A stretch of DNA of 34,945 nucleotides from Candidatus Woesearchaeota archaeon (lineage in GTDB: Archaea; Nanobdellota; Nanobdellia; Pacearchaeales; GW2011-AR1): positions 1 through 34,945 of the forward strand of contig CAZRJS010000007.1 of assembly GCA_964600565.1 (NCBI GenBank). The letters run 5' to 3'. A program made the translations under genes and the position numbers. How positions within the stretch are numbered: position 1 is the first letter of the stretch; each line of letters starts with the position of its first letter. The notes under the pieces are model-generated. The model saw only the letters and a list, made by a program, of their open reading frames with translations, did not search any database and was not told the DNA's origin. Of the stretch, positions 4,637 through 18,849 are shown piece by piece.

Positions 4637-5569
4637 TCATTTATTTTCTAAACTTATTTTATTGTTTTTTTTATTTAATTCTTTTTCTTTTAAATCAATT
4701 AAAATTCCCAATTTTTTTAAGTTTCTTTTATTAACCAAGATGTTTTTTAAGATAATTGTCCTTTCATAACCTACCTCTAAAGTTTCAATATCAAAATCTT
4801 TTACAAATTCTTCATCTGCATAAATTGATAATTTTCCAGGTTTTGATTTTTTCAAACCATTATTTTTGATTGTTGTGTTTATATCAAGGTATCTTGAATG
4901 GATAAATGCTGTAGCATTTTTAATTGATAAATCTGGAAGACTTTCATAAGAATAAAGTTCATTTATTAAATCAGGGATATCTTTTCCGATATTTTGACTG
5001 CATTTAGTTATACTATACATTATGCTTTCTGAATTTTCTGAATGTTTAAAACCAAGAGCATGAAGTAGCTCGTGAATTGCAACATTAGGATTAGGGCATC
5101 TTGAGTTTTCTATTAAAAGAACTTTTCCTCTTATTATAACATTAAAGTTGTCTGTTTGAGTTATATTAACTGGTCCTCCTTCTCCTGCAATAAAAAGATC
5201 TCCTTCAATTTTCATCTTTTCATCACAGCTAATTTCTATTTCAGCATTGTTTTCAACTGGGTAAAAATTTAGTATAGTTTTTTCTTCTATTATCTCAAAA
5301 GCTTTTTTCATATCTTTTTGTTTTTTAAGAGTGCAATCTAAAATTTTATATGATATACTTGAATCAGGATATCTCATTTTTTCATAAAATTGCATATCTT
5401 TAAGTTCTGTATTATTAAGACTAAAATTATTATTTATTTCTCCAGTTTTAAATTCAAAGGTTCTAAATGGAATTAGCCAGTAGACTCCAAGTAAAAATAA
5501 AACTAAGAGAAAAAATAAAAAACTTAAAATAATCCTTAAAATTTTTCTTTTTTCTTCTTGTTCTTCCAT
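4637..5569 (-). CDS. Membrane-anchored metzincin-type zinc metalloprotease
   Basis: 310 aa with an N-terminal TM anchor (ILRIILSFLFFLLVLFLLGVYWLI). Full HEXXHXXGXXH signature (HELLHALGFKH) followed by a Met-turn candidate (SIMY). Confidence 0.7.
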   Translation of the reverse strand: MEEQEEKRKILRIILSFLFFLLVLFLLGVYWLIPFRTFEFKTGEINNNFSLNNTELKDMQFYEKMRYPDSSISYKILDCTLKKQKDMKKAFEIIEEKTILNFYPVENNAEIEISCDEKMKIEGDLFIAGEGGPVNITQTDNFNVIIRGKVLLIENSRCPNPNVAIHELLHALGFKHSENSESIMYSITKCSQNIGKDIPDLINELYSYESLPDLSIKNATAFIHSRYLDINTTIKNNGLKKSKPGKLSIYADEEFVKDFDIETLEVGYERTIILKNILVNKRNLKKLGILIDLKEKELNKKNNKISLENK

Positions 5570-5954: not shown

Positions 5955-5989
5955 ATTAATAAAGAATTTCTTATTAATAAAAATTTCAA
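5955..5989 (+). repeat. 35-nt direct repeat, copy 1 (33/35 identical to 13767..13801)
   Basis: attaataaaGaatttcttattaataaaaattTcaa versus attaataaaAaatttcttattaataaaaattCcaa. Contains an imperfect palindrome, ttaataa..ttattaa. Weaker similarity continues ~100 nt to the right in both copies. Confidence 0.7.
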
Positions 5990-6126
5990 TGGGGCAATGA
6001 GATAAGATTCTTTTTTAAACACATAAAGAAATCTAAAAAGAGGGGTTTTTAGAAAAGATTATTAAAATAAAGGGAATTCAATAAAACTTTATAACAAATC
6101 ATTCATCTCCTGAAAAAAACACAATC

Positions 6127-6494: not shown

Positions 6495-7349
6495 TTATTT
6501 ATTACTAAGATTTCTATTTGTTTTAAAAATTTTTTTCTTAGCTTTTTTATTTGATAAACATTCATATAATCGCATGAAATCTGGGTTTACAAGCTCAGTT
6601 CCTCTTCTTCCAGATAATTCTTTTGGTAGATTGAATAAATCTAATATTCTTTCCTTTCCTAAATAACAAATTTCTCCTCCAATAGAAAGGTAATTTATTA
6701 CACTGTTGGTTAAAGAATCTCCTAATGGTCTCTTCCTTTGTTCCCAGATACTCCTAAAGATATAATCTTCAAATCTTGCTGTTGATTTTTTTCGGGGTTT
6801 TATAGAAATTAATGCTCCATTTACAGAAGGTTCAGGATTAAAACTATTTGAGGGAATTTTCATAAGGTATTCTGTATCAAAAAATGCATTTGTAAGGATA
6901 GCTAATCTGCTAATGGGGGTTGTATCTGGAAGAATTCTTTCTTGATATGATTCAATATTATTAGCCTGTTTTTCTCCAACAAGGAGTGTAGCTGATTTAA
7001 ATCGTTCAGAATAAAGTCTATTAAATAAAGGTTCTGTAATATTAAAAGGGATATTTGATACTATTTTATCAATACCTTTTGGCCATTTTGAAGATAAAGC
7101 ATTTCCCATTACAATCTCTATATTTGAAAATTTATTTTTAATTTCCTGAAGATCATCTTTTAAATGGGAATCTTTTTCTATTACAGTAACTTTTTTTGCA
7201 AATTCAGCTAAATATTTTGTTAAAAAACCTTTTCCAGGACCAATTTCTAATATATGATCTTTAGATTCAACTTCTGCAAAAAAAACCATGTCTTTAGCTA
7301 TATCAGGATTAATTAAAAAATGTTGATTTTTATATATCTTATCTGGCAT
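6495..7349 (-). CDS. rRNA adenine dimethyltransferase family protein (KsgA/Dim1/Erm-like), paralog 1
   Basis: 284 aa. NQHFLINPDI, SAM motif ILEIGPGKGFLT, VTVIEKD, and catalytic IVSNIPFNITEPL (N-[LI]-P-[YF]). Confidence 0.75.
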   Translation of the reverse strand: MPDKIYKNQHFLINPDIAKDMVFFAEVESKDHILEIGPGKGFLTKYLAEFAKKVTVIEKDSHLKDDLQEIKNKFSNIEIVMGNALSSKWPKGIDKIVSNIPFNITEPLFNRLYSERFKSATLLVGEKQANNIESYQERILPDTTPISRLAILTNAFFDTEYLMKIPSNSFNPEPSVNGALISIKPRKKSTARFEDYIFRSIWEQRKRPLGDSLTNSVINYLSIGGEICYLGKERILDLFNLPKELSGRRGTELVNPDFMRLYECLSNKKAKKKIFKTNRNLSNK

Positions 7350-7461: not shown

Positions 7462-7806
7462 ATGATAGTGGCAAAAGAGTTTGTATTTGATTCTGCACAT
7501 AAATTAAAATGGCATAAGGGGAAGTGTAAAAATCTTCATGGTCATACATACAAATTACAAATTTTAGTTGAAGGTAAATTAAACAAACAGGGGATAGTTA
7601 TAGATTTTGGAGATATGAAAAAAATAATTAAGAGAGAAGTTATTGAAAAATTAGATCATAGATATCTAAATGAAATTATAAAAAATCCTACTGCAGAAAA
7701 CATATCTATATGGATTTGGGAAGAATTAAAAGATAAGATTAAAGATCTTAAAGAGATAAGATTGTGGGAAACTCCAACTTCATTTGCAATATATAATGGA
7801 AAATAA
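7462..7806 (+). CDS. queD: 6-carboxy-5,6,7,8-tetrahydropterin synthase (PTPS family)
   Basis: 114 aa. FDSAHKL...KCKNLHGHTYKL is the Cys-x3-HGH catalytic/zinc signature of QueD. Confidence 0.9.
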   Translation: MIVAKEFVFDSAHKLKWHKGKCKNLHGHTYKLQILVEGKLNKQGIVIDFGDMKKIIKREVIEKLDHRYLNEIIKNPTAENISIWIWEELKDKIKDLKEIRLWETPTSFAIYNGK

Positions 7807-8443
7807 AACTCTAAAAATAAATGAAATTTTCACAAGCATACAAGGAGAAGGAATTCAATCAGGATTGCCCACAATTTTTATTAGATTAACTGGATGCAAT
7901 CTTCGATGTAATTGGTGTGATACTAAATATGCTTATAATAAAGGGAGAGATAAAAATCTTATAAATATTTTAAAAGAGATTAAAAAATTTAAAATTAAAA
8001 ATATTTGTATTACCGGAGGAGAACCTTTACTTCAAAAAAATTTATTGTTATTCATTAGATTATTAATTGAAGAAAAATACAAGATTTTAATAGAAACAAA
8101 TGGCTCTTTGGATGTGTCTTTGATTCCAAAAGAGGTTTTAATTTCTTTAGATATAAAATGTCCTTCTTCAAATGAGAGCAAAAAAAATTTGTTATCAAAT
8201 TTAAAATTTTTAAAAAAGAAAGATCAATGCAAATTTGTAATAAATGATTATAAAGATTATTTATATGCAAAAAGGATAATAAAAAAATATAATCTTATTA
8301 AAAAAATAAATATTTTTTTTACCCCTGTTGGGGGAAAAAACGCTAGAAATTTAGTTGAATGGATTTTAAAAGATAAACTTAATATAAGAATCGGATTACA
8401 AATCCATAAGATAATTTGGGGCGATAAAAAAAGGGGTGTATGA
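7784..8443 (+). CDS. queE: 7-carboxy-7-deazaguanine synthase (radical SAM)
   Basis: EIFTSIQGEGIQSGLPTIFIRLTGCNLRCNWCDTKY is the QueE-type CX3CX2C cluster with a SIQGEG motif. The start may be Met5 (7796). It overlaps the queD stop. Confidence 0.9.
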   Translation: MQYIMENKTLKINEIFTSIQGEGIQSGLPTIFIRLTGCNLRCNWCDTKYAYNKGRDKNLINILKEIKKFKIKNICITGGEPLLQKNLLLFIRLLIEEKYKILIETNGSLDVSLIPKEVLISLDIKCPSSNESKKNLLSNLKFLKKKDQCKFVINDYKDYLYAKRIIKKYNLIKKINIFFTPVGGKNARNLVEWILKDKLNIRIGLQIHKIIWGDKKRGV

Positions 8444-9216
8444 TGAAAGATATTCAAAATCAAAAAGAATTTAGGGGGATTAGACTAAATGAAGTTGGGA
8501 TTAAACATATAAAGTTGCCTGTAAGAATTTTAGATAAAGGTAAAAAAGTTCAACATACTATTGCAGAATTTCATCTTGTTGTTTCATTAGATAAAAATAA
8601 AAGAGGAACTCATATGAGTAGATTTGTTGAAATTTTAGATGAATATATTAAAAAAGATTTAAATTTAAAAGTATTAGGAGAAATTGTTTCTGAAATGAAA
8701 AAAAGATTAGAAGCAATTGATTCTAAAATTATTATGAAATTCCCCTATTTTAAACGAAAAATGTCTCCCATATCAAGGAAAGAATCGATTTTAAATTACG
8801 AATGTTGTTTCACTTGTACTGGAAAAAATTTTGAAGATAAGATTATTGAGGTAAATGTTCCAATAACTACTTTATGTCCTTGTAGTAAAGAAATAAGTAG
8901 ATTTGGAGCCCATAATCAGAGAGGTTTTGCTAGGGTGAGAATTATTTCTTCAAAAAATATTTGGATAGAAGATATAATTAATCTTGTAGAAAAAGAAGCA
9001 AGTTGTGAGATATTTCCTTTATTGAAGAGGGTTGATGAAAAATATGTGACAGAAAAAGCGTATATGAATCCAAAATTTGTTGAAGATGTTGTAAGAGATG
9101 TTGTAAAGAAGTTGAAAAAAAATAAATCGATAATAAGTTATGAAATTGGATTATTAAACAACGAAAGTATTCACCTCCATGATGCTTATGCTTCAGTTTC
9201 AGGAGAAGTAAAATGA
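8440..9216 (+). CDS. folE2: GTP cyclohydrolase IB (FolE2/MptA family)
   Basis: 258 aa. GTHMSRF, TLCPCSKEIS and GAHNQRG motifs are typical of FolE2/MptA. 4-nt ATGA overlap with queE. Confidence 0.85.
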   Translation: MMKDIQNQKEFRGIRLNEVGIKHIKLPVRILDKGKKVQHTIAEFHLVVSLDKNKRGTHMSRFVEILDEYIKKDLNLKVLGEIVSEMKKRLEAIDSKIIMKFPYFKRKMSPISRKESILNYECCFTCTGKNFEDKIIEVNVPITTLCPCSKEISRFGAHNQRGFARVRIISSKNIWIEDIINLVEKEASCEIFPLLKRVDEKYVTEKAYMNPKFVEDVVRDVVKKLKKNKSIISYEIGLLNNESIHLHDAYASVSGEVK

Positions 9217-10892
9217 AGTATGTTTTAGGTGTAAATGCAGGATTAGAAAGAACCCATGATTCTTCAGCATGTTTATTCAGAAAGGGTAAGTTAATTGCAT
9301 TTGCTGAGGAAGAAAGATTTATAAGAAAAAAACATGCTTATAATCTTCTGCCTCATAATGCAATCAGATTTTGTTTGAATGAAGGAAAAATTGATGTTAA
9401 TGAAATAGAAAAGATAGCAGTTTCATGGGATTTTCCTAAATTTTATAGTCAGATTGGTAAAAAATTTCCTTCAAAAAATAATTTTAAAAAAAAATTATTC
9501 CCAAAAAAATATTATAAAAAGGTTAGTGCAGAAATTGTTTATGTGAATCATCACTTAGCACATGCTTCAAGTGCTTTTAGGTGTTCTGGATTTAATAAAT
9601 CTGCTGTTTTGATAATAGATGGTCAGGGAGAAGATTTTTCTACTAGTATTTGGGTTGGAGAAGGAAAGAAAATAAAATTTGTAAAAGGTTTCGATATATT
9701 TCATTCAATAGGCTATTTATATGAAGCTGCTAGTAAATATCTTGGTTTTAGATTAGACCAATCTGGAAAAACAATGGGTCTTTCTGCATATGGAAAGAAA
9801 AAATATGATTTTGAAGATTTGATCAAATTTATTCCTGAAGGTTATATATTGAATATTAAAGAAAAACTTTATCAAGAAATTGACTTTCAAAAGATTGTAT
9901 CTGATTCTTTTATTAAATACTTTGAAAAAAAAATTGGCCCAAAAAATAAAAGAATTTATCTATGGGATGAAAGAGATAGTATTATAGATAATAAAGTTTA
10001 TCTTAATAGAGAAGATGAAAATTTTGCTGCTTCTATTCAAGAGATAATTAATAGATTATTTATTCATCTTTCAAAAATTGCATTAAAATTAACAGGCACG
10101 TCAAAATTGTGTATTGCTGGAGGAGTTGGTTTGAATTGTGTAGGAAATGGCAAAATATTAGAAGAAAATATTTGTGATGAACTTTATGTACAACCTATAG
10201 CAAATGATGCTGGGACAAGTATTGGGGCAGCAATGGAGATTTTATCTAATGAAGGAGAAGATATTAATTTTAAAATGGATGACGTATACTATGGTCCAAA
10301 TTTCTCAAATAAAGAAATAGAAAAAATAATTGAAAAGAATAAATTAAATTATGAATACCTTAATAATCCTTCAAAGACTGTGGCCAAAATGATTTATGAG
10401 GGAAAAATTATAGGTTGGTTTCAGGGAAAAATGGAAGGTGGTCCTCGAGCATTAGGTAATCGGAGTATTCTAGCTGATCCAACTAACCCTAAAATAAAGG
10501 ATTTTGTTAATGAAGTAAAATTTAGAGAAAAATGGAGGCCACTTTGTCCAAGCATAATTGAAGAAGTAAAAGAAAAGTATCTTGAATTTCCTTATGATTC
10601 CCCGTTTATGACAATTAATTTTAAGATAAAAAAAGATAAGATAGAAAAAATTCCTTCAGCAGTTCATATTGATGGTACCGCAAGGGTACAGACAGTTAGT
10701 AAAAAAACCAATGCCCTCTATTGGGATTTAATAAGTGAGTTTGGAAAATTATCTGGAGAACAAGTTATCCTAAATACTTCAATGAATTCTAAAGGAGAAC
10801 CAATTGTATGTAGTCCTAATGATGCTATAAAGAATTTTTATACTTCTCAAATGGATGCATTGGTAATGGGTAATTATCTTATTGAAAAATGA
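9213..10892 (+). CDS. NodU/CmcH/TobZ-family carbamoyltransferase
   Basis: 559 aa. N-terminal LGVNAGLERTHDSSACLF and VNHHLAHASSAF (ASKHA/Kae1-like metal site), plus a C-terminal GPRALGNRSILADP motif. 4-nt overlap with folE2. Confidence 0.85.
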   Translation: MKYVLGVNAGLERTHDSSACLFRKGKLIAFAEEERFIRKKHAYNLLPHNAIRFCLNEGKIDVNEIEKIAVSWDFPKFYSQIGKKFPSKNNFKKKLFPKKYYKKVSAEIVYVNHHLAHASSAFRCSGFNKSAVLIIDGQGEDFSTSIWVGEGKKIKFVKGFDIFHSIGYLYEAASKYLGFRLDQSGKTMGLSAYGKKKYDFEDLIKFIPEGYILNIKEKLYQEIDFQKIVSDSFIKYFEKKIGPKNKRIYLWDERDSIIDNKVYLNREDENFAASIQEIINRLFIHLSKIALKLTGTSKLCIAGGVGLNCVGNGKILEENICDELYVQPIANDAGTSIGAAMEILSNEGEDINFKMDDVYYGPNFSNKEIEKIIEKNKLNYEYLNNPSKTVAKMIYEGKIIGWFQGKMEGGPRALGNRSILADPTNPKIKDFVNEVKFREKWRPLCPSIIEEVKEKYLEFPYDSPFMTINFKIKKDKIEKIPSAVHIDGTARVQTVSKKTNALYWDLISEFGKLSGEQVILNTSMNSKGEPIVCSPNDAIKNFYTSQMDALVMGNYLIEK

Positions 10893-11674
10893 AATTAACA
10901 ATATTAATTCCAGTATCAGATGATATAAGAATAAAAAGATGTATTGAAAGCATTGACGAAGATGTAGAAATTATTATTATTTTTAATTTTCCTTCAAAAG
11001 AAGTAAAAACAATAATAAAAAATTTATCAGAAAAATATAATCTTTTAACTACAGAAATAAATGAAAGAAATCTTGCAAAAGCATATAATCTTGGAACAGT
11101 TATGGCATTAAATAATAATATTCTGCTTATGGATTCTGACTGTATTTTTGAAAAAAATACAATTAAGAAATTACAAAAAGGTATGGATAAAAATTTTTTA
11201 TCAAAAGGGAGAGTTATTTATCAAACTTCTGGATTTATTAGTAGAATAATTGCGGGACTAAGAAATTACATTACTGTTGATAGAATTTCTGCGTTTAGTC
11301 CTCCTTTAATATTCAGCAAAAAAATTAAAAAGAAAATAAAAGGATATTATTTTTATGAAAAGTTATGCTGGATAGAAGATGCTGAATTTAATGAACGTGT
11401 TCAAAATGCCAAAGTTAAAATTTCTTATGATTCTTCTGCAGTTATTTATCATGATAAACTTACATTAAAAGAAGATTTAAGGAGTTCATATAGATATGGT
11501 ACTGGAAGAGCAATTGCAGATAAAGAAAAATTATTTAAAAATGAAATAAGGAGGGGTAATTCTAAGGACTTCCTTAATATTTTTAAAAAGAAGGGTTTTC
11601 TAATAGCTAGTTATTCTTTAGTTTGGAATATATTCTTTAGATTTGGATATAAAAAAGAAATGAAAAATAATTAA
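10889..11674 (+). CDS. Family 2 glycosyltransferase (GT-A fold)
   Basis: 261 aa. LTILIPVSDD start, NLAKAYNLGTVMALNNNILLMDSDC (DxD-type). 4-nt overlap with the carbamoyltransferase gene. Its stop shares TTAA with the stop of the convergent queC. Confidence 0.7.
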   Translation: MKLTILIPVSDDIRIKRCIESIDEDVEIIIIFNFPSKEVKTIIKNLSEKYNLLTTEINERNLAKAYNLGTVMALNNNILLMDSDCIFEKNTIKKLQKGMDKNFLSKGRVIYQTSGFISRIIAGLRNYITVDRISAFSPPLIFSKKIKKKIKGYYFYEKLCWIEDAEFNERVQNAKVKISYDSSAVIYHDKLTLKEDLRSSYRYGTGRAIADKEKLFKNEIRRGNSKDFLNIFKKKGFLIASYSLVWNIFFRFGYKKEMKNN

Positions 11675-12315
11675 TTTAAATATTCTGTTCTGTCAATCTT
11701 TCCCGCTTTTTTAAATGCCGCTTTACGTTCTTTACAACTTCTGCATTTACCACATTGTTTTTTAAAATTTTTATAGCAACTCCAAGAATGATATAAAGGG
11801 AATTCCGAATTAATTTTAATCATTTGGTATTTATTTTTATTTACAAATGGTTGTTTTAATTTTATTTTGTCATAAGAACTGTATTTTAATACTTTGTTAA
11901 AAAGATTTCCAAATTTAAAATTATTATCTGGAAAAGAGTCTTCTTTAGTACTACCTAACCAGACTTCACTAATCTTATAATTTACTCCAAATGAAGAAGC
12001 TAAGCTTAGAAATAGAAGATTTCTTAATGGAACCCATTCTTTTTTCTTATTTTTTGATTTTCCTTGCATAAAAGAATTAGTGAATCCTAGATTAATTTTT
12101 CTATTTATTAAAGTTATTCTTATATCCTTAGATTTTTTCTTATTTTCTTTGATGAATTTTTTAAGTGCTTCTAATTCTTTTTTAAAATTTTTTTGACCAT
12201 AATTAAAAAAAATAAGAACGGGTTCTCTCTTTTTTAATATAGCTTTAGATATTAAACATACTGAATCTAATCCCCCTGAAGTTAAAATTAATACTTTCTC
12301 AGGCTTTCTTTTCAT
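11671..12315 (-). CDS. queC: 7-cyano-7-deazaguanine synthase-like PP-loop ATPase (QueC paralog 1)
   Basis: 214 aa. PP-loop LILTSGGLDS, NYGQKN, VPLRNLLFLSLA, and the C-terminal four-Cys zinc cluster SCYKNFKKQCGKCRSCKERK. Confidence 0.8.
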   Translation of the reverse strand: MKRKPEKVLILTSGGLDSVCLISKAILKKREPVLIFFNYGQKNFKKELEALKKFIKENKKKSKDIRITLINRKINLGFTNSFMQGKSKNKKKEWVPLRNLLFLSLASSFGVNYKISEVWLGSTKEDSFPDNNFKFGNLFNKVLKYSSYDKIKLKQPFVNKNKYQMIKINSEFPLYHSWSCYKNFKKQCGKCRSCKERKAAFKKAGKIDRTEYLN

Positions 12316-13045
12316 ATTTTGTGTCTTTTAGGTTTAATCTTTTGAATATTAGCCTTCTTCTAACGCAATGTTGGCATTCTCCACATTGGGGAGAGGTTCC
12401 TTTAAGGCAGTTATAAGTTAGATGTAAGGGAACTTTCAATTTAACTCCTAGTTTAATAACGTCTTCTTTTGTCATTTTTTTATCTTGGAATGGGAACTCT
12501 ACTGAAATCCCATTAATATTGCTAAATTTTGAAATTTCTTTTGCTCCATTACACCAAAAAGAGGTTTCATCTGGAAAAGAAAGATTTTCTTTTAATATTG
12601 GGTCTTTTATAGAATAATGAATTATTGAGAAAGCAACTTTATTGTATCCTTCAGCTTCTGCTCCTGCCATTAATTCAGCTAAAAAATATAGATTTCTTGC
12701 AGGAGTCCATAAAAATTCTGCTAGTTTTCTTTCTCTTTCTAAATCATTAAGATCTTCCGGAGTTGTTTTTGGAAATTTACTTTGTTTTCCAACAATCGTT
12801 CCACTTCGATATACTTTTCCGAATTTTTTCAGTCTTTTCAAGTCTATAATTTCATATGAAAAATTTTTATAATTTTTCTGGATAAATGAAGCAATTCTTT
12901 TAATAGCTTTTAATTCCTGAAACTTAATCTTTTGCCCATAATCAAAGTAAATACCTTTTACAGTATATCCTTTTTTCAAATAATCAACAGCTAGAACTGT
13001 GCTATCAATACCGCCTGTAAAAGTCATTCTTACTTTTTTATCCAT
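12299..13045 (-). CDS. QueC-like PP-loop ATPase, divergent paralog 2
   Basis: 248 aa. MTFTGGIDS, FDYGQK, TPARNLYFL, and C-terminal YNCLKGTSPQCGECQHCVRRR. It carries an extra ~20-aa acidic/basic insert (TTPEDLNDLERERKLAEF) relative to paralog 1. Overlaps both neighbours. Confidence 0.7.
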   Translation of the reverse strand: MDKKVRMTFTGGIDSTVLAVDYLKKGYTVKGIYFDYGQKIKFQELKAIKRIASFIQKNYKNFSYEIIDLKRLKKFGKVYRSGTIVGKQSKFPKTTPEDLNDLERERKLAEFLWTPARNLYFLAELMAGAEAEGYNKVAFSIIHYSIKDPILKENLSFPDETSFWCNGAKEISKFSNINGISVEFPFQDKKMTKEDVIKLGVKLKVPLHLTYNCLKGTSPQCGECQHCVRRRLIFKRLNLKDTKYEKKA

Positions 13046-13656
13046 TTTATGTTAAATACTTCTGCATATCCTCCTGGAATCTCGTTTAAAATACCATAAT
13101 ATTCATTTAAGCCTTTAACAGCTCGATCATATCTAATCTTTTTTATTTGGGACTTATATTCATTTATGAGCTTTAGTTTTTTGTCTAAATATTTGCTAAT
13201 ATTTTGTATAAAATTGTATTTAACTAAGGGGGTCCATATACAATATTCAAAAATTTCTTTTGTTCTTTTACAGGGTTTTCCTAATTTTAAAAAGATTGGT
13301 GTTGAAGACATCCAAATAGCTTCTTTTAGAAGTTCGTTGCAAACCTTGTGATCGTGATCTCTTTCAAGTTCATGAGGGATATAAATTGTTTCAGGATTAA
13401 TTTTTCTTATATGTTTTATTAAATTTCCTAAATTTTTTTTGTTATATTGAAAAGGTTCATTTATTTTGAGAAAAGTATAGCTCTTAATTCTTGCTTTTTT
13501 CTGAACTTTTTTTGATTCTTTTTCTCTTATTTTAGAACCAATGTAACCCATGATTATCACATGCACATCATGACCTTCTTCTATCTTTTTTAGAATTGTT
13601 CCACCACAACCGATAATTTCATCATCTGGATGAGGGGCTATTATTAGGATTTTCAT
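13030..13656 (-). CDS. PIG-L/LmbE-family N-acetylglucosaminyl deacetylase
   Basis: 208 aa. N-terminal ILIIAPHPDDEIIGCGGT is the family signature. A downstream HDHKV fits the zinc site. Confidence 0.8.
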   Translation of the reverse strand: MKILIIAPHPDDEIIGCGGTILKKIEEGHDVHVIIMGYIGSKIREKESKKVQKKARIKSYTFLKINEPFQYNKKNLGNLIKHIRKINPETIYIPHELERDHDHKVCNELLKEAIWMSSTPIFLKLGKPCKRTKEIFEYCIWTPLVKYNFIQNISKYLDKKLKLINEYKSQIKKIRYDRAVKGLNEYYGILNEIPGGYAEVFNIKWIKK

Positions 13657-13766: not shown

Positions 13767-13801
13767 ATTAATAAAAAATTTCTTATTAATAAAAATTCCA
13801 A
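13767..13801 (+). repeat. 35-nt direct repeat, copy 2
   Basis: See 5955..5989. It lies 111 nt upstream of the PIG-L start; copy 1 lies 103 nt upstream of the 5852 start. Confidence 0.7.
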
Positions 13802-13901
13802 GAGGAAAATTAAATCATATTCATTTTTTAAGTTTGTGAGTATAAAAAGAGAAATATAAAAAGCAAGTTTAATAAAAGATTAGATTTATTTGCCAAAAAT
13901 C

Positions 13902-14708
13902 TTATTTTTTAATAATTAATTTAATCTTATCATAAATTATTAAAATCATCTTTCCAGAAATATTGCTGACTTTTTTTTCAAGAGTTTTATCATTGAGATG
14001 AAATTCTTTTAATAAGGTTTTTGCCTCATTTTTTGTATAACCTTCATTAACAAAAAAAGAGATAATTGCATTTTTTATTTTTCCTTTTCTTTTGAGAATA
14101 AATTTTATAGATTCATTATATTTATCTCCTGTTTTCATTGTTAATTTTAATAACCAGGAATTTACTCTTGGGGGTGGTGAAAAAGAAGATTTTTTCACTT
14201 TTTCTATAATTTTTATATCATAAAAGAGATTAGCAATTATGCCAGATTTAGTTGAATTATCAATTAACAGATTTTTAAAATTTTCTCCAATAATAAAAAC
14301 AATAAAAGGAATATCTGTTATAACTGCCTTAGCAATGATTTTTTCTCCAAGATAATAAGGGATATTTGAAACAATTTTATCATATCCTTCCCAAGAGTAT
14401 TTTGTAGCATCACCATAAATAATCTCTAAATTTTTATATTTATTTTTGATTAATTCCAACTTTTTTTTATATTGTATATCAATCTCAAAACTAAGAACTT
14501 TTTTTGCTTTTTTTGCTAGTTCATTTGTAAGCATACCCTCTCCAGCCCCAATTTCAATAATCTTATCTTTTTTAGACAGGGATGAATTTTCTATTTCCTT
14601 CTTTAAAACCAGTTTATCAACTAAAAAATGTTGCCCTTTTTCTAAATTATTTTTTGAATTTGTTTTGTTCCAAAGAAATATCTTTTTCATATTAATTAAT
14701 ACCCTCAA
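13902..14708 (-). CDS. rRNA adenine dimethyltransferase family protein (KsgA/Erm-like), divergent paralog 2
   Basis: 268 aa. GQHFLVD, IIEIGAGEGMLT, SFEIDIQY, YGDATKY, IVSNIPYYLGEKI. Only distantly similar to paralog 1, judged by eye. Confidence 0.75.
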   Translation of the reverse strand: MRVLINMKKIFLWNKTNSKNNLEKGQHFLVDKLVLKKEIENSSLSKKDKIIEIGAGEGMLTNELAKKAKKVLSFEIDIQYKKKLELIKNKYKNLEIIYGDATKYSWEGYDKIVSNIPYYLGEKIIAKAVITDIPFIVFIIGENFKNLLIDNSTKSGIIANLFYDIKIIEKVKKSSFSPPPRVNSWLLKLTMKTGDKYNESIKFILKRKGKIKNAIISFFVNEGYTKNEAKTLLKEFHLNDKTLEKKVSNISGKMILIIYDKIKLIIKK

Positions 14709-14793: not shown

Positions 14794-14881
14794 TTTGCAA
14801 TATTTTAATGTGTGATAAGTTTTAAGCTTGATTAGAATAATATTTATCCTTCTTTCATAGTTAAAGGTTTTGAACAAAAGG

Positions 14882-14891
14882 TTTTTTATAT
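14882..14891 (+). promoter_or_regulatory. TATA-like box upstream of ABC ATPase gene
   Basis: ttttttatat is centred ~25 nt upstream of the likely start at 14912. Confidence 0.3.
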
Positions 14892-14911
14892 CTAATTTAT
14901 GTTATTATAAA

Positions 14912-15619
14912 ATGAAAAAGAGTGAAATTTTGATAAAGCTAAAAGATGTTGAGAAACATTATCGCATAGGAGAAAAGAATATTGTCAAAGCTGTTGATGG
15001 TATAAGTATATCAATAAAAAAAGGGGATTTTGTCGCTGTAATGGGTCCAAGTGGTTCTGGAAAAAGCACATGCATGAATCTTATTGGAAGTTTAGATGTT
15101 CCAACAAAAGGGACTATACATCTTGGAGGAGAAAATATCTCTTATCTTAGCGAGTCTGATTTAGCAGAATTGAGAGGAATGCAAATTGGTTTTATTTTCC
15201 AGCAGTTTAACCTTATACCTAATTTAACTGTTAAAGAAAATGTAATGTTGCCAATGGATTTTCAAAGAATTTCTGGTAGAGAAAAAGAAGAAATTGCAGA
15301 AGAAATTTTAGAGAAAATAGGATTGGAAGAAAGAATGGATTTTTATCCTAATCAACTTTCTGGAGGTCAACAACAAAGAGTTGCAATTGCAAGAGCTCTG
15401 GCAAATAATCCAGAGGTTATTTTAGCAGATGAACCAACAGGAAATCTTGATACAAAAACAGGGCAAAAAGTTATGGATTTTTTAGAAGAATTAAACAAAG
15501 AAGGAAAAACAATAATTATGGTTACTCATGACCCTAATTTAGCAAATGAACATGCAGATATTGTTTATTGGCTTATAGATGGAAAAGTGCAAAAAATAAC
15601 TGGAAAAAAGAGTAAGTAG
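14912..15619 (+). CDS. MacB/LolD-type ABC transporter ATP-binding protein
   Basis: Walker A GPSGSGKST, signature LSGGQQQRVAIARAL, Walker B ILADEPTGNLD. The ORF opens at 14870, but MKKSEILIKLKDV at 14912 fits family N-termini and the TATA spacing. Confidence 0.85.
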   Translation: MKKSEILIKLKDVEKHYRIGEKNIVKAVDGISISIKKGDFVAVMGPSGSGKSTCMNLIGSLDVPTKGTIHLGGENISYLSESDLAELRGMQIGFIFQQFNLIPNLTVKENVMLPMDFQRISGREKEEIAEEILEKIGLEERMDFYPNQLSGGQQQRVAIARALANNPEVILADEPTGNLDTKTGQKVMDFLEELNKEGKTIIMVTHDPNLANEHADIVYWLIDGKVQKITGKKSK

Positions 15620-17976: not shown

Positions 17977-18849
17977 ATGTTTAGACACATTCCAGTTTTA
18001 CCAGAAGAAGTTTTAGAAAATTTTAGAAGTTTAAAAAAAGGAGAAATAATAATAGATGGAACAATTGGGAAAGGGGGGCATTCTAAACTTCTTTTAGAGG
18101 AAGGTTTTGAAGTTATTGGTATAGATAGAGATAAAGAATCAATAGAAGAGGCAGAAAAGAATTTACAAAATTTTAATATAAAAATTGTAAATGATAATTT
18201 TTCACAAATTAAGCAGGTTTTATCAAAATTAGGAATAAAAAAGGTTGGGGGGATTTTATTAGATTTGGGGGTTTCAACATATCAATTAGAAAAAGCAGAA
18301 AGAGGATTTGGTTTTGTAGGGGAATTGGATATGAGAATGAACCAGGACCAAAAATTAACAGCCAAAGAAGTTGTTAATGAATATTCAGAAAAGAAACTTG
18401 CAGATGTTTTGTATAAAAATGGAGAGAGGGTTAATGCAAGAAAAATTGCAAAAAGAATTGTAGATTATAGACAGAAAAGAAAGATTGAAACTGGTGGACA
18501 GCTTCTTAAATTAATAAAATACAGCCTTGATGAAAAATATAGAAAATCTAGAAAACATCACTGGGCAACTCCCACTTTTAGAGCATTAAGGATAGAAGTA
18601 AATAAAGATTATGAAAATTTAGAAAAATTTTTTGGGGTTTTTAGTAATTGTTTGAAAAAAAAGGGAATTTTGCAAATTATAACTTTTCATTCAATCGAAG
18701 AAAAAATTGTAAGGAAAAAATTAAGAGAATTAAAACAAAAGAAGGTTATAAAATTAATAACGAAAAGACCTTTTGAAGCAACTTTAAAAGAAATAGCAAA
18801 GAATCCAAAATCAAAAAGAGCAAAACTATGGGTTGCTGAACTGAGATAA
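17977..18849 (+). CDS. rsmH: 16S rRNA (cytosine-N4) methyltransferase RsmH/MraW
   Basis: 290 aa. HIPVLPEEVLE, DGTIGKGGHS, LLDLGVSTYQLEKAERGFGF, LDMRMNQ, FRALRIEVNKDYENL, ITFHSIEEKIV. Confidence 0.85.
   Translation: MFRHIPVLPEEVLENFRSLKKGEIIIDGTIGKGGHSKLLLEEGFEVIGIDRDKESIEEAEKNLQNFNIKIVNDNFSQIKQVLSKLGIKKVGGILLDLGVSTYQLEKAERGFGFVGELDMRMNQDQKLTAKEVVNEYSEKKLADVLYKNGERVNARKIAKRIVDYRQKRKIETGGQLLKLIKYSLDEKYRKSRKHHWATPTFRALRIEVNKDYENLEKFFGVFSNCLKKKGILQIITFHSIEEKIVRKKLRELKQKKVIKLITKRPFEATLKEIAKNPKSKRAKLWVAELR

What the first reader, a model, noticed from the sequence alone, without database searches (positions are those of the whole stretch)
7462..13656. Complete preQ0 (7-deazaguanine) pathway translationally coupled to sugar-tailoring enzymes: candidate route to an undescribed glycosylated/carbamoylated 7-deazaguanine
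Seen in sequence: eight genes form two convergent blocks with essentially no spacers. On the plus strand, queD, queE, folE2, carbamoyltransferase and GT2 overlap at 7784-7806, 8440-8443, 9213-9216 and 10889-10892. On the minus strand, PIG-L deacetylase, QueC paralog 2 and QueC paralog 1 overlap at 13030-13045 and 12299-12315. The two blocks meet stop-on-stop in a shared TTAA (11671-11674). Established knowledge: FolE2, QueD, QueE and QueC are sufficient for GTP -> preQ0. In Archaea preQ0 normally goes onto tRNA G15 (archaeosine). The same four-step route feeds toyocamycin/sangivamycin-type antibiotics and 7-deazaguanine DNA modification (Dpd systems, phages). NodU/CmcH/TobZ enzymes O-carbamoylate sugars or hydroxyls via carbamoyl-AMP. 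PIG-L/LmbE enzymes de-N-acetylate GlcNAc conjugates (MshB, BshB, GlcNAc-PI). Glycosylated deazaguanines exist elsewhere, for example mannosyl- and galactosyl-queuosine in animal tRNA and glycosylated preQ0 natural products such as dapiramicin and huimycin. Inference: the tight coupling suggests one pathway. GT2 would attach a HexNAc to a 7-deazaguanine (free base, nucleoside, or already in tRNA or DNA), PIG-L would deacetylate it, and the carbamoyltransferase would cap it. I know of no described archaeal system with this gene combination. No TGT/ArcTGT, DpdA, ArcS or QueF is in the window, so the acceptor is open.
Basis: partly seen in the sequence, partly recalled or inferred. Interest (0 to 1): 0.85.

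Follow-up and report, generated by a model that had tools for sequence, protein, structure and literature searches.

The report
Mobile cluster for a sugar-decorated deazaguanine
In a tiny symbiotic archaeon, the four genes that build the guanine look-alike preQ0 sit in one operon with three sugar-handling genes. The same set turns up in other archaea, in a candidate-phyla bacterium and in Firmicutes, where it also carries an export pump. The best reading is that it makes a small glycosylated, carbamoylated deazaguanine, a natural product of a kind not yet described from archaea.

Summary
At 7462-13656 there are eight tightly packed genes. On the + strand: queD (PTPS), queE (radical SAM), folE2, a full-length TobZ-type carbamoyltransferase and a soluble GT2 glycosyltransferase, joined by ATGA overlaps. 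On the − strand: two QueC paralogs and a PIG-L deacetylase. The two blocks end on overlapping stop codons (TTAA 11671-11674). The genome is a DPANN archaeon (S24e present, S6 absent). It has no TGT of any kind and no QueF, so its preQ0 is not headed for tRNA. Comparison with relatives is the main new evidence. The GT2–PIG-L–carbamoyltransferase trio sits in one operon with preQ0 genes in a Pacearchaeota MAG, in another DPANN genome, in a Saccharibacteria (CPR) contig and in Firmicutes (Clostridium disporicum, Metabacillus idriensis, a Defluviitaleaceae). The Firmicute copies add an ABC-2 exporter. More distant carbamoyltransferase homologs never sit next to que genes. However, three Woesearchaeota loci carry the trio without any preQ0 pathway, so the cassette can travel alone. 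Best reading (about 0.5): a horizontally mobile gene cluster for a small molecule made by glycosylating preQ0, with an N-acetylhexosamine that is then de-N-acetylated and carbamoylated. Huimycin is the nearest analogue, but the cluster is not a member of that family. The product has not been shown.

The parts
7462..7806 (+). queD, 6-carboxytetrahydropterin synthase (PTPS family)
   Evidence: Pfam PTPS E=1e-37; NCBIfam QueD equivalog above cut-off
7784..8443 (+). queE, 7-carboxy-7-deazaguanine synthase (radical SAM; start TTG 7784 or ATG 7796)
   Evidence: Pfam Radical_SAM; NCBIfam rSAM_QueE; CxxxCxxC motif; junctions
8440..9216 (+). folE2, GTP cyclohydrolase (type IB)
   Evidence: Pfam GCHY-1 E=1e-86; NCBIfam FolE2 above cut-off, MptA lower
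9213..10892 (+). TobZ/NodU-type O-carbamoyltransferase (Kae1-like N domain + YrdC-like C domain), translationally coupled to folE2
   Evidence: Pfam Carbam_trans_N+C; PDB best hit TobZ over the full length, E=8e-111; ATGA coupling
10889..11674 (+). soluble GT2 (GT-A) glycosyltransferase
   Evidence: Pfam Glycos_transf_2; no TM segment; homologs sit in preQ0 clusters in Firmicutes
11671..12315 (-). QueC, 7-cyano-7-deazaguanine synthase
   Evidence: Pfam QueC E=1.6e-39; TIGR00364; PADLOC QueC
12299..13045 (-). second QueC paralog (PP-loop, C-terminal Zn motif)
   Evidence: Pfam QueC E=3.8e-28; only 26-28% identity to QueC1
13030..13656 (-). PIG-L/LmbE-family de-N-acetylase (BshB/Dac-like)
   Evidence: Pfam PIG-L; NCBIfam BshB1; PDB best hits diacetylchitobiose deacetylase and LmbE-like
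6495..7349 (-). RrnaAD (KsgA/Dim1/Erm-like) paralog flanking the cluster; role uncertain
   Evidence: Pfam RrnaAD; PDB RsmA/Dim1; an RrnaAD sits next to the module in all archaeal/CPR relatives
13902..14708 (-). second RrnaAD paralog flanking the cluster; role uncertain
   Evidence: Pfam RrnaAD; PDB RsmA; orthologous flank in L007

Best explanation
The cluster is a horizontally mobile gene cluster for a small specialised molecule built on preQ0 (7-cyano-7-deazaguanine), not a tRNA or DNA modification system. The chain runs GTP → FolE2 → QueD → QueE (CDG) → QueC (preQ0); the second QueC may be a partner subunit or may do a second ATP-dependent amidation. The GT2 then attaches an N-acetylhexosamine, most likely GlcNAc from UDP-GlcNAc, to the deazaguanine. 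In huimycin that sugar sits on N2; here the attachment point is open. The PIG-L enzyme removes the N-acetyl group to give a glucosamine conjugate, as BshB/MshB/Dac-type enzymes do for their GlcNAc conjugates. The TobZ-type carbamoyltransferase makes carbamoyl-AMP from carbamoyl phosphate and ATP and O-carbamoylates a sugar hydroxyl, as TobZ and NodU do on 6-OH groups. The likely product is a glucosaminyl-preQ0 carrying a carbamoyl group, which is probably exported (the Firmicute versions carry an ABC-2 exporter). What is shown: gene identities, the coupling and operon structure, the absence of TGT and QueF from the genome, and conserved co-clustering across domains. What is inferred: the acceptor, the sugar, the order of steps and export from this archaeon.
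For: The preQ0 core and intact motifs are present. There is no TGT/arcTGT/DpdA-family enzyme and no QueF in the 87%-complete genome, so the preQ0 has no nucleic-acid destination. The carbamoyltransferase is translationally coupled to folE2 both here and in the Pacearchaeota MAG L007. The trio sits in one operon or cluster with preQ0 genes in four archaeal/CPR loci: the window, L007, L126/G261 (which also lacks TGT) and L008 (Saccharibacteria). The same holds in three Firmicute loci: Clostridium disporicum L205-L207, Metabacillus idriensis L211 and Defluviitaleaceae L214. Those carry FolE, QueD, QueE, QueC, the carbamoyltransferase, GT2, PIG-L, a class-I MTase or B12-radical SAM, and an ABC-2 exporter, all on one strand. 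Identities between the window and the Firmicute proteins are 37-48% for carbamoyltransferase, GT2 and PIG-L. Carbamoyltransferase homologs at 42% identity or less (about 90 loci) never sit next to que genes. QueC loci elsewhere in the phylum lack the trio. The carbamoyltransferase's closest solved structure is TobZ over its full length; the PIG-L's are GlcNAc-conjugate deacetylases. Huimycin proves that a glycosyltransferase can attach GlcNAc to a preQ0-derived base and that preQ0 cores are tailored by glycosyltransferases and methyltransferases (PMC7439116). Full preQ0 pathways without insertion enzymes are the accepted signature of secondary metabolism (preprint 10.64898/2026.04.15.718813). 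All eight proteins are soluble.
Against: Three Woesearchaeota loci carry GT2–PIG-L–carbamoyltransferase (with radical SAMs, DUF3419 and MTases) but have no QueC anywhere in genomes that are 90-100% complete (L123/G125, L124/G369, L212). So the trio can work without preQ0 there, and its natural acceptor may be something else. No product has been detected. The genome has no carbamoyl-phosphate synthetase, so the carbamoyltransferase substrate would have to come from the host or from another route. The window cluster has no adjacent exporter or regulator. The window GT2 is closer to Firmicute GT2s (48%) than to the Pacearchaeota one (35%), so the cassette is a mosaic.
Confidence: 0.5

Rival explanations
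1. Two separate functions share a locus. The preQ0 genes supply preQ0 for tRNA modification (through a TGT missing from the assembly, or in the host if preQ0 is exchanged). The GT2–PIG-L–carbamoyltransferase trio is an independent sugar-tailoring cassette for a glycolipid, glycan or other glycoconjugate (carbamoylated glucosamine, like NodU on Nod factors), which happens to lie next to the que genes.
For: The trio occurs without any preQ0 pathway in three Woesearchaeota loci. Those genomes carry a TGT, and the trio there sits with radical SAM and DUF3419 genes instead. In NCBIfam the carbamoyltransferase matches NodU best. PIG-L enzymes act on GlcNAc lipids and thiols.
Against: Carbamoyltransferase–folE2 translational coupling recurs in two archaeal genomes. 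The same que+trio combination recurs across domains, in Firmicutes with an exporter, on one strand. Neither G000 nor G261 has any TGT or QueF. Distant carbamoyltransferase homologs never sit by que genes.
Confidence: 0.22
2. A nucleic-acid modification system (a Dpd-like DNA or RNA modification) in which a glycosylated or carbamoylated 7-deazaguanine is put into DNA or tRNA.
For: DPANN and phage 7-deazaguanine modification systems exist (background knowledge). QueC1 weakly matches the PADLOC QueC and QatC models.
Against: There is no TGT/DpdA-family inserting enzyme in the genome. There are no DpdB/C or Qat components. The relatives in Firmicutes carry an exporter, not restriction or modification genes.
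Confidence: 0.07
3. preQ0, or a simple derivative, is made as a metabolite traded with the symbiotic host (DPANN cells depend on hosts), and the tailoring enzymes mark or protect it.
For: This is a DPANN-type reduced genome lacking many pathways, carbamoyl-phosphate synthesis among them. Trio-only relatives carry a TGT, which could use a salvaged deazaguanine.
Against: There is no transporter in the window cluster. The Firmicute versions of the same cluster are free-living bacteria, so host exchange cannot be the general role.
Confidence: 0.08

Closest known systems
Huimycin gene cluster (huiA-G, Kutzneria albida; PMC7439116)
   Same: A preQ0 core (QueC/QueD/QueE/GTP cyclohydrolase) plus a glycosyltransferase that attaches GlcNAc to the preQ0-derived base. 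A neighbouring carbamoyltransferase (KALB_4074) lies next to the cluster but was shown not to be needed.
   Different: Huimycin's glycosyltransferase is reported as a GT-B (PF13439) type and its cluster has a HuiC MTase and a regulator. This cluster has a GT-A/GT2, a PIG-L deacetylase, a required-looking TobZ-type carbamoyltransferase coupled into the operon, a second QueC, no MTase in the window, and an archaeal host.
Toyocamycin/sangivamycin cluster (ToyB/C/D/M)
   Same: The same four core enzymes turn GTP into preQ0 for a specialised metabolite.
   Different: Toyocamycin is a ribosylated 7-deazaadenine nitrile made by PRPP-dependent steps. There is no GT2, deacetylase or carbamoyltransferase tailoring, and the producers are Streptomyces.
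TobZ (tobramycin 6''-O-carbamoyltransferase) and NodU (Nod-factor 6-O-carbamoyltransferase)
   Same: The window enzyme matches TobZ over its full length (PDB 3VEN family, E=8e-111). This implies the same carbamoyl-AMP-forming YrdC-like plus Kae1-like two-domain chemistry on a sugar hydroxyl.
   Different: The acceptor here is unknown, probably a glucosamine attached to a deazapurine rather than an aminoglycoside or chito-oligosaccharide.
Bacillithiol/mycothiol GlcNAc-conjugate pathways (BshA GT + BshB PIG-L; MshA + MshB)
   Same: A glycosyltransferase attaches GlcNAc to an acceptor and a PIG-L enzyme then de-N-acetylates it. NCBIfam's best PIG-L match is BshB1.
   Different: Here the acceptor is probably a deazapurine and the next step is carbamoylation, not cysteine addition.
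Archaeosine (arcTGT/ArcS) and bacterial queuosine (TGT/QueF) tRNA pathways; Dpd DNA modification
   Same: They share the preQ0 biosynthetic core.
   Different: All of them need a TGT-family inserting enzyme, which is absent from this genome. Queuosine also needs QueF, which is absent too.

Membership tests
7-deazapurine specialised-metabolite cluster (preQ0-core BGC) | Complete GTP→preQ0 core (GTP cyclohydrolase, QueD, QueE, QueC) | tested here: met
   Pfam/NCBIfam
7-deazapurine specialised-metabolite cluster (preQ0-core BGC) | No nucleic-acid inserting enzyme (TGT/DpdA) in the genome | tested here: met
   PF01702 absent in G000, 87% complete; also absent in G261
7-deazapurine specialised-metabolite cluster (preQ0-core BGC) | Tailoring enzymes co-clustered with the core | tested here: met
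   GT2, PIG-L, carbamoyltransferase; conserved in relatives
7-deazapurine specialised-metabolite cluster (preQ0-core BGC) | Transporter/regulator in the cluster (antiSMASH-style criterion in the 2026 preprint) | tested here: inconclusive
   No exporter or regulator inside 7462-13656. A generic ABC ATPase lies at 14870-15619. The Firmicute relatives carry an ABC-2 exporter and the Clostridium one an RNPP regulator.
7-deazapurine specialised-metabolite cluster (preQ0-core BGC) | Product detected | not testable with these tools
   Needs LC-MS
Huimycin-type BGC | HuiG-type glycosyltransferase (reported as PF13439, GT-B) | tested here: not met
   The window GT is Glycos_transf_2/GT-A; the preprint's huimycin family uses PF13439
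Huimycin-type BGC | SAM-dependent O-methyltransferase (HuiC) in the cluster | tested here: not met
   None in the window cluster. Class-I MTases are present in relatives L007, L211, L214.
Dpd 7-deazaguanine DNA modification system | DpdA (TGT paralog) plus DpdB/DpdC | tested here: not met
   No PF01702; PADLOC finds only QueC
Archaeosine tRNA pathway | arcTGT | tested here: not met
Bacterial queuosine pathway | QueF and TGT | tested here: not met
Qat anti-phage system | QatA/B/C/D set | tested here: not met
   Only a weak QatC match below the cut-off to QueC1; no other components
TobZ/NodU O-carbamoyltransferase family (for the 9213-10892 protein) | Kae1-like plus YrdC-like two-domain architecture | tested here: met
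   Carbam_trans_N+C; full-length TobZ match

The most novel reading that the evidence does not exclude
DPANN archaea and CPR bacteria make and export a glycosylated (glucosamine) and carbamoylated 7-deazapurine natural product that acts in their interactions with hosts or competitors. The RrnaAD (KsgA/Erm-like) paralog that travels with the cassette in DPANN and CPR may protect the producer's own ribosome.
Probability: 0.15. Interest if true: 0.9.

Novelty: new variant of a known kind. Interest (0 to 1): 0.65.

Why it matters
Gene clusters for specialised molecules are almost unknown in DPANN archaea, and only bacterial 7-deazapurine natural-product clusters (mostly Streptomyces) are described. 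The searches here found no paper describing this cluster. A preQ0 core joined to a GT2, a PIG-L de-N-acetylase and a TobZ-type carbamoyltransferase, shared by archaea, CPR and Firmicutes, would point to a new family of deazapurine–aminosugar hybrid molecules. It would also show such clusters moving between domains. Because cultivable Firmicutes (Metabacillus idriensis, Clostridium disporicum) carry the same cluster, the product can be looked for directly by knockouts and metabolomics.

Tried and rejected
Metagenome scan with the PIG-L query found nothing. Rfam found no preQ1 riboswitch or other regulatory RNA upstream of queD. IMG/VR carbamoyltransferase homologs are distant (30-37%) and carry no que genes, so there is no sign of phage origin. 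Mobile-element signatures: no att-like long direct repeat around the cluster; only a conserved 65-nt element downstream of both RrnaAD genes. No tRNA sits next to the module in the relatives. Expression: no RNA holder listed. Public DNA contigs from salt-lake metagenomes cover all parts of the cluster at 90-100% identity but are too short to bridge genes. PDB search for the GT2 found no solved homolog. I considered and rejected a Dpd or Qat defence system: no DpdA/B/C or QatA/B/D. I also rejected an Erm-based self-resistance claim: both RrnaADs look like KsgA/Dim1, and the adjacent RrnaAD is the only copy in three genomes, so it is probably the housekeeping dim1 locus. I did not use structure prediction or complex prediction: neither could identify the acceptor.

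Full report
Observation. The window is 34.9 kb of a 1.4-Mb, 170-contig, 87%-complete genome (G000). The genome is archaeal: it has ribosomal protein S24e and lacks bacterial S6. Its small size, low GC (~26%) and closest relatives (Pacearchaeota, Woesearchaeota, Nanoarchaeota) place it among the DPANN archaea. PTPS/QueD at 7462-7806+ (QueD equivalog above its cut-off). Radical-SAM QueE at 7784-8443+ (TTG start; another ATG at 7796). FolE2 at 8440-9216+ (FolE2 above cut-off, MptA lower). A carbamoyltransferase with both Carbam_trans_N and _C at 9213-10892+, whose closest solved structure is the full-length tobramycin O-carbamoyltransferase TobZ (E=8e-111). A soluble GT2 at 10889-11674+ (no TM segment). 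QueC at 11671-12315−, a second QueC paralog at 12299-13045− (only ~27% identical to the first), and a PIG-L at 13030-13656−. The PIG-L's closest solved structures are diacetylchitobiose deacetylase and LmbE-like proteins, and its best NCBIfam model is BshB1. I checked the junctions in the sequence: ATGA couplings at folE2, the carbamoyltransferase and GT2, and the convergent shared TTAA at 11671-11674. Catalytic motifs are intact. They are the genome's only two strong RrnaAD genes.

Where the preQ0 could go. The genome has no TGT-family enzyme (bacterial TGT, arcTGT or DpdA) and no QueF, so preQ0 cannot be put into tRNA or DNA by known routes. The genome is 87% complete, so a missing TGT cannot be fully excluded. 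PADLOC finds no Dpd or Qat defence components apart from the QueC itself. The genome also lacks a carbamoyl-phosphate synthetase, as expected for a host-dependent DPANN cell. The carbamoyltransferase's substrate must therefore be imported or made another way; this is a caveat for the mechanism.

Comparative evidence. The closest carbamoyltransferase relative in a survey of one genome per species is a Pacearchaeota MAG (L007, 58% identity). L007 has the same operon with the same couplings: queD-queE-folE2-carbamoyltransferase, followed there by a radical SAM-SPASM gene. It also has a class-I MTase, a long QueC-domain protein, GT2 and PIG-L, and is bracketed by two RrnaAD genes orthologous to those in the window. 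A Saccharibacteria (CPR) contig (L008) carries queD, RrnaAD, carbamoyltransferase, QueC, an APH-type kinase and GT2. A second DPANN genome (G261, L126) carries carbamoyltransferase, RrnaAD, GT2, a QueC with an N-terminal extension, an MTase, queD and folE2, and also lacks TGT. By contrast, about 90 carbamoyltransferase homologs at 42% identity or less, from bacteria, archaea and viruses, never sit next to que genes. Of the 20 of 401 phylum genomes that have QueC, none outside the module-bearing ones has the trio nearby. The GT2 search led to Firmicute relatives with the same cluster, and these are decisive for co-clustering across domains. Clostridium disporicum (L205-L207) has FolE, QueD, QueE, QueC, carbamoyltransferase, GT2, PIG-L, a B12-radical SAM, DUF5591, an ABC-2 exporter and an RNPP-type regulator. 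Metabacillus idriensis (L211) and a Defluviitaleaceae (L214) have BpsA_C-carbamoyltransferase-DUF5591-GT2-MTase-PIG-L-ABC-ABC2-ABC2-QueC-QueD-QueE-FolE, all on one strand. Identities to the window proteins are 37-48% for carbamoyltransferase, GT2 and PIG-L and 25-40% for the que enzymes. The window GT2 is closer to the Firmicute one (48%) than to the Pacearchaeota one (35%), so the cassette is a mosaic.

Counter-evidence. Three Woesearchaeota loci carry GT2–PIG-L–carbamoyltransferase (with radical SAM, DUF3419 and MTase genes) but no QueC anywhere in their 90-100%-complete genomes (L123/G125, L124/G369, L212). These genomes have a ~400-aa bacterial-type TGT. The sugar-tailoring trio is therefore a cassette that can work with another aglycone, or with a salvaged deazapurine. 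Huimycin (PMC7439116) shows that preQ0 cores are glycosylated with GlcNAc in natural products. The 2026 genome-mining preprint (10.64898/2026.04.15.718813) uses the same rule (full core, no inserting enzyme) to-deazapurine clusters secondary-metabolic. Its survey was of bacteria and mostly Streptomyces, and it does not mention carbamoyltransferases or PIG-L. I found no paper describing this combination.

Mechanism (best reading, about 0.5). FolE2, QueD, QueE and QueC make preQ0; this part is shown by family and motif. The GT2 attaches GlcNAc (inferred), the PIG-L removes the acetyl group (inferred from the substrates of its family), and the TobZ-like carbamoyltransferase O-carbamoylates the sugar (inferred from the TobZ match). 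The result would be a carbamoylated glucosaminyl-deazaguanine; the Firmicute versions would export it through the ABC-2 transporter. The second QueC may be a heterodimer partner or may do an extra amidation; this is open. The RrnaAD gene next to the module is the only RrnaAD in three genomes, so the cluster most likely sits at the dim1 locus. A role in self-protection is speculative. Other features: a 65-nt element recurs downstream of both RrnaAD genes. Salt-lake metagenome contigs cover the whole region at 90-100% identity.

Verdict. This is a new variant of the known 7-deazapurine natural-product cluster type, in an unexpected host group.

Noticed in passing
window 6495-7349 (-) and 13902-14708 (-): Two KsgA/Dim1/Erm-type RrnaAD paralogs bracket the cluster; an RrnaAD sits next to the module in every archaeal and CPR relative, and it is the only RrnaAD in G125, G261 and G369. 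The cluster probably sits at the dim1 locus, or the RrnaAD is part of the cassette.
   Followed up: partly
window 5955-6018 and 13767-13831: A 65-nt AT-rich element (83% identical) recurs downstream of both RrnaAD genes; its function is unknown (possibly a terminator or an old attachment site).
   Followed up: partly
G000 genome: No carbamoyl-phosphate synthetase large subunit, so the TobZ-type carbamoyltransferase's substrate must be imported or made another way.
   Followed up: partly
window 4637-5569 (-): A matrixin-like M10 metalloprotease with a CARDB domain in an archaeal genome.
   Followed up: no
window 17977-18849 (+): A bacterial-type MraW/RsmH 16S rRNA m4C methyltransferase in a DPANN archaeon, likely from horizontal transfer.
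   Followed up: no
L008 6149-7237 (-): The Saccharibacteria version of the cluster carries an APH-family (aminoglycoside phosphotransferase-like) kinase.
   Followed up: no
L173, L175-L188: Many genomes in this phylum carry a QueC with no queD/queE/folE2 nearby (orphan QueC); its role is unclear.
   Followed up: no
L126 8767-10041 and L007 11422-12630: Cluster-associated QueC proteins in other DPANN genomes have 110-180-aa N-terminal extensions of unknown function.
   Followed up: no
Read laying X3/X4/X5, window 7639-11320: Salt-lake metagenome contigs show a possible 3.7-kb skip (queE–carbamoyltransferase), supported by only a 22-letter side; unreliable.
   Followed up: no
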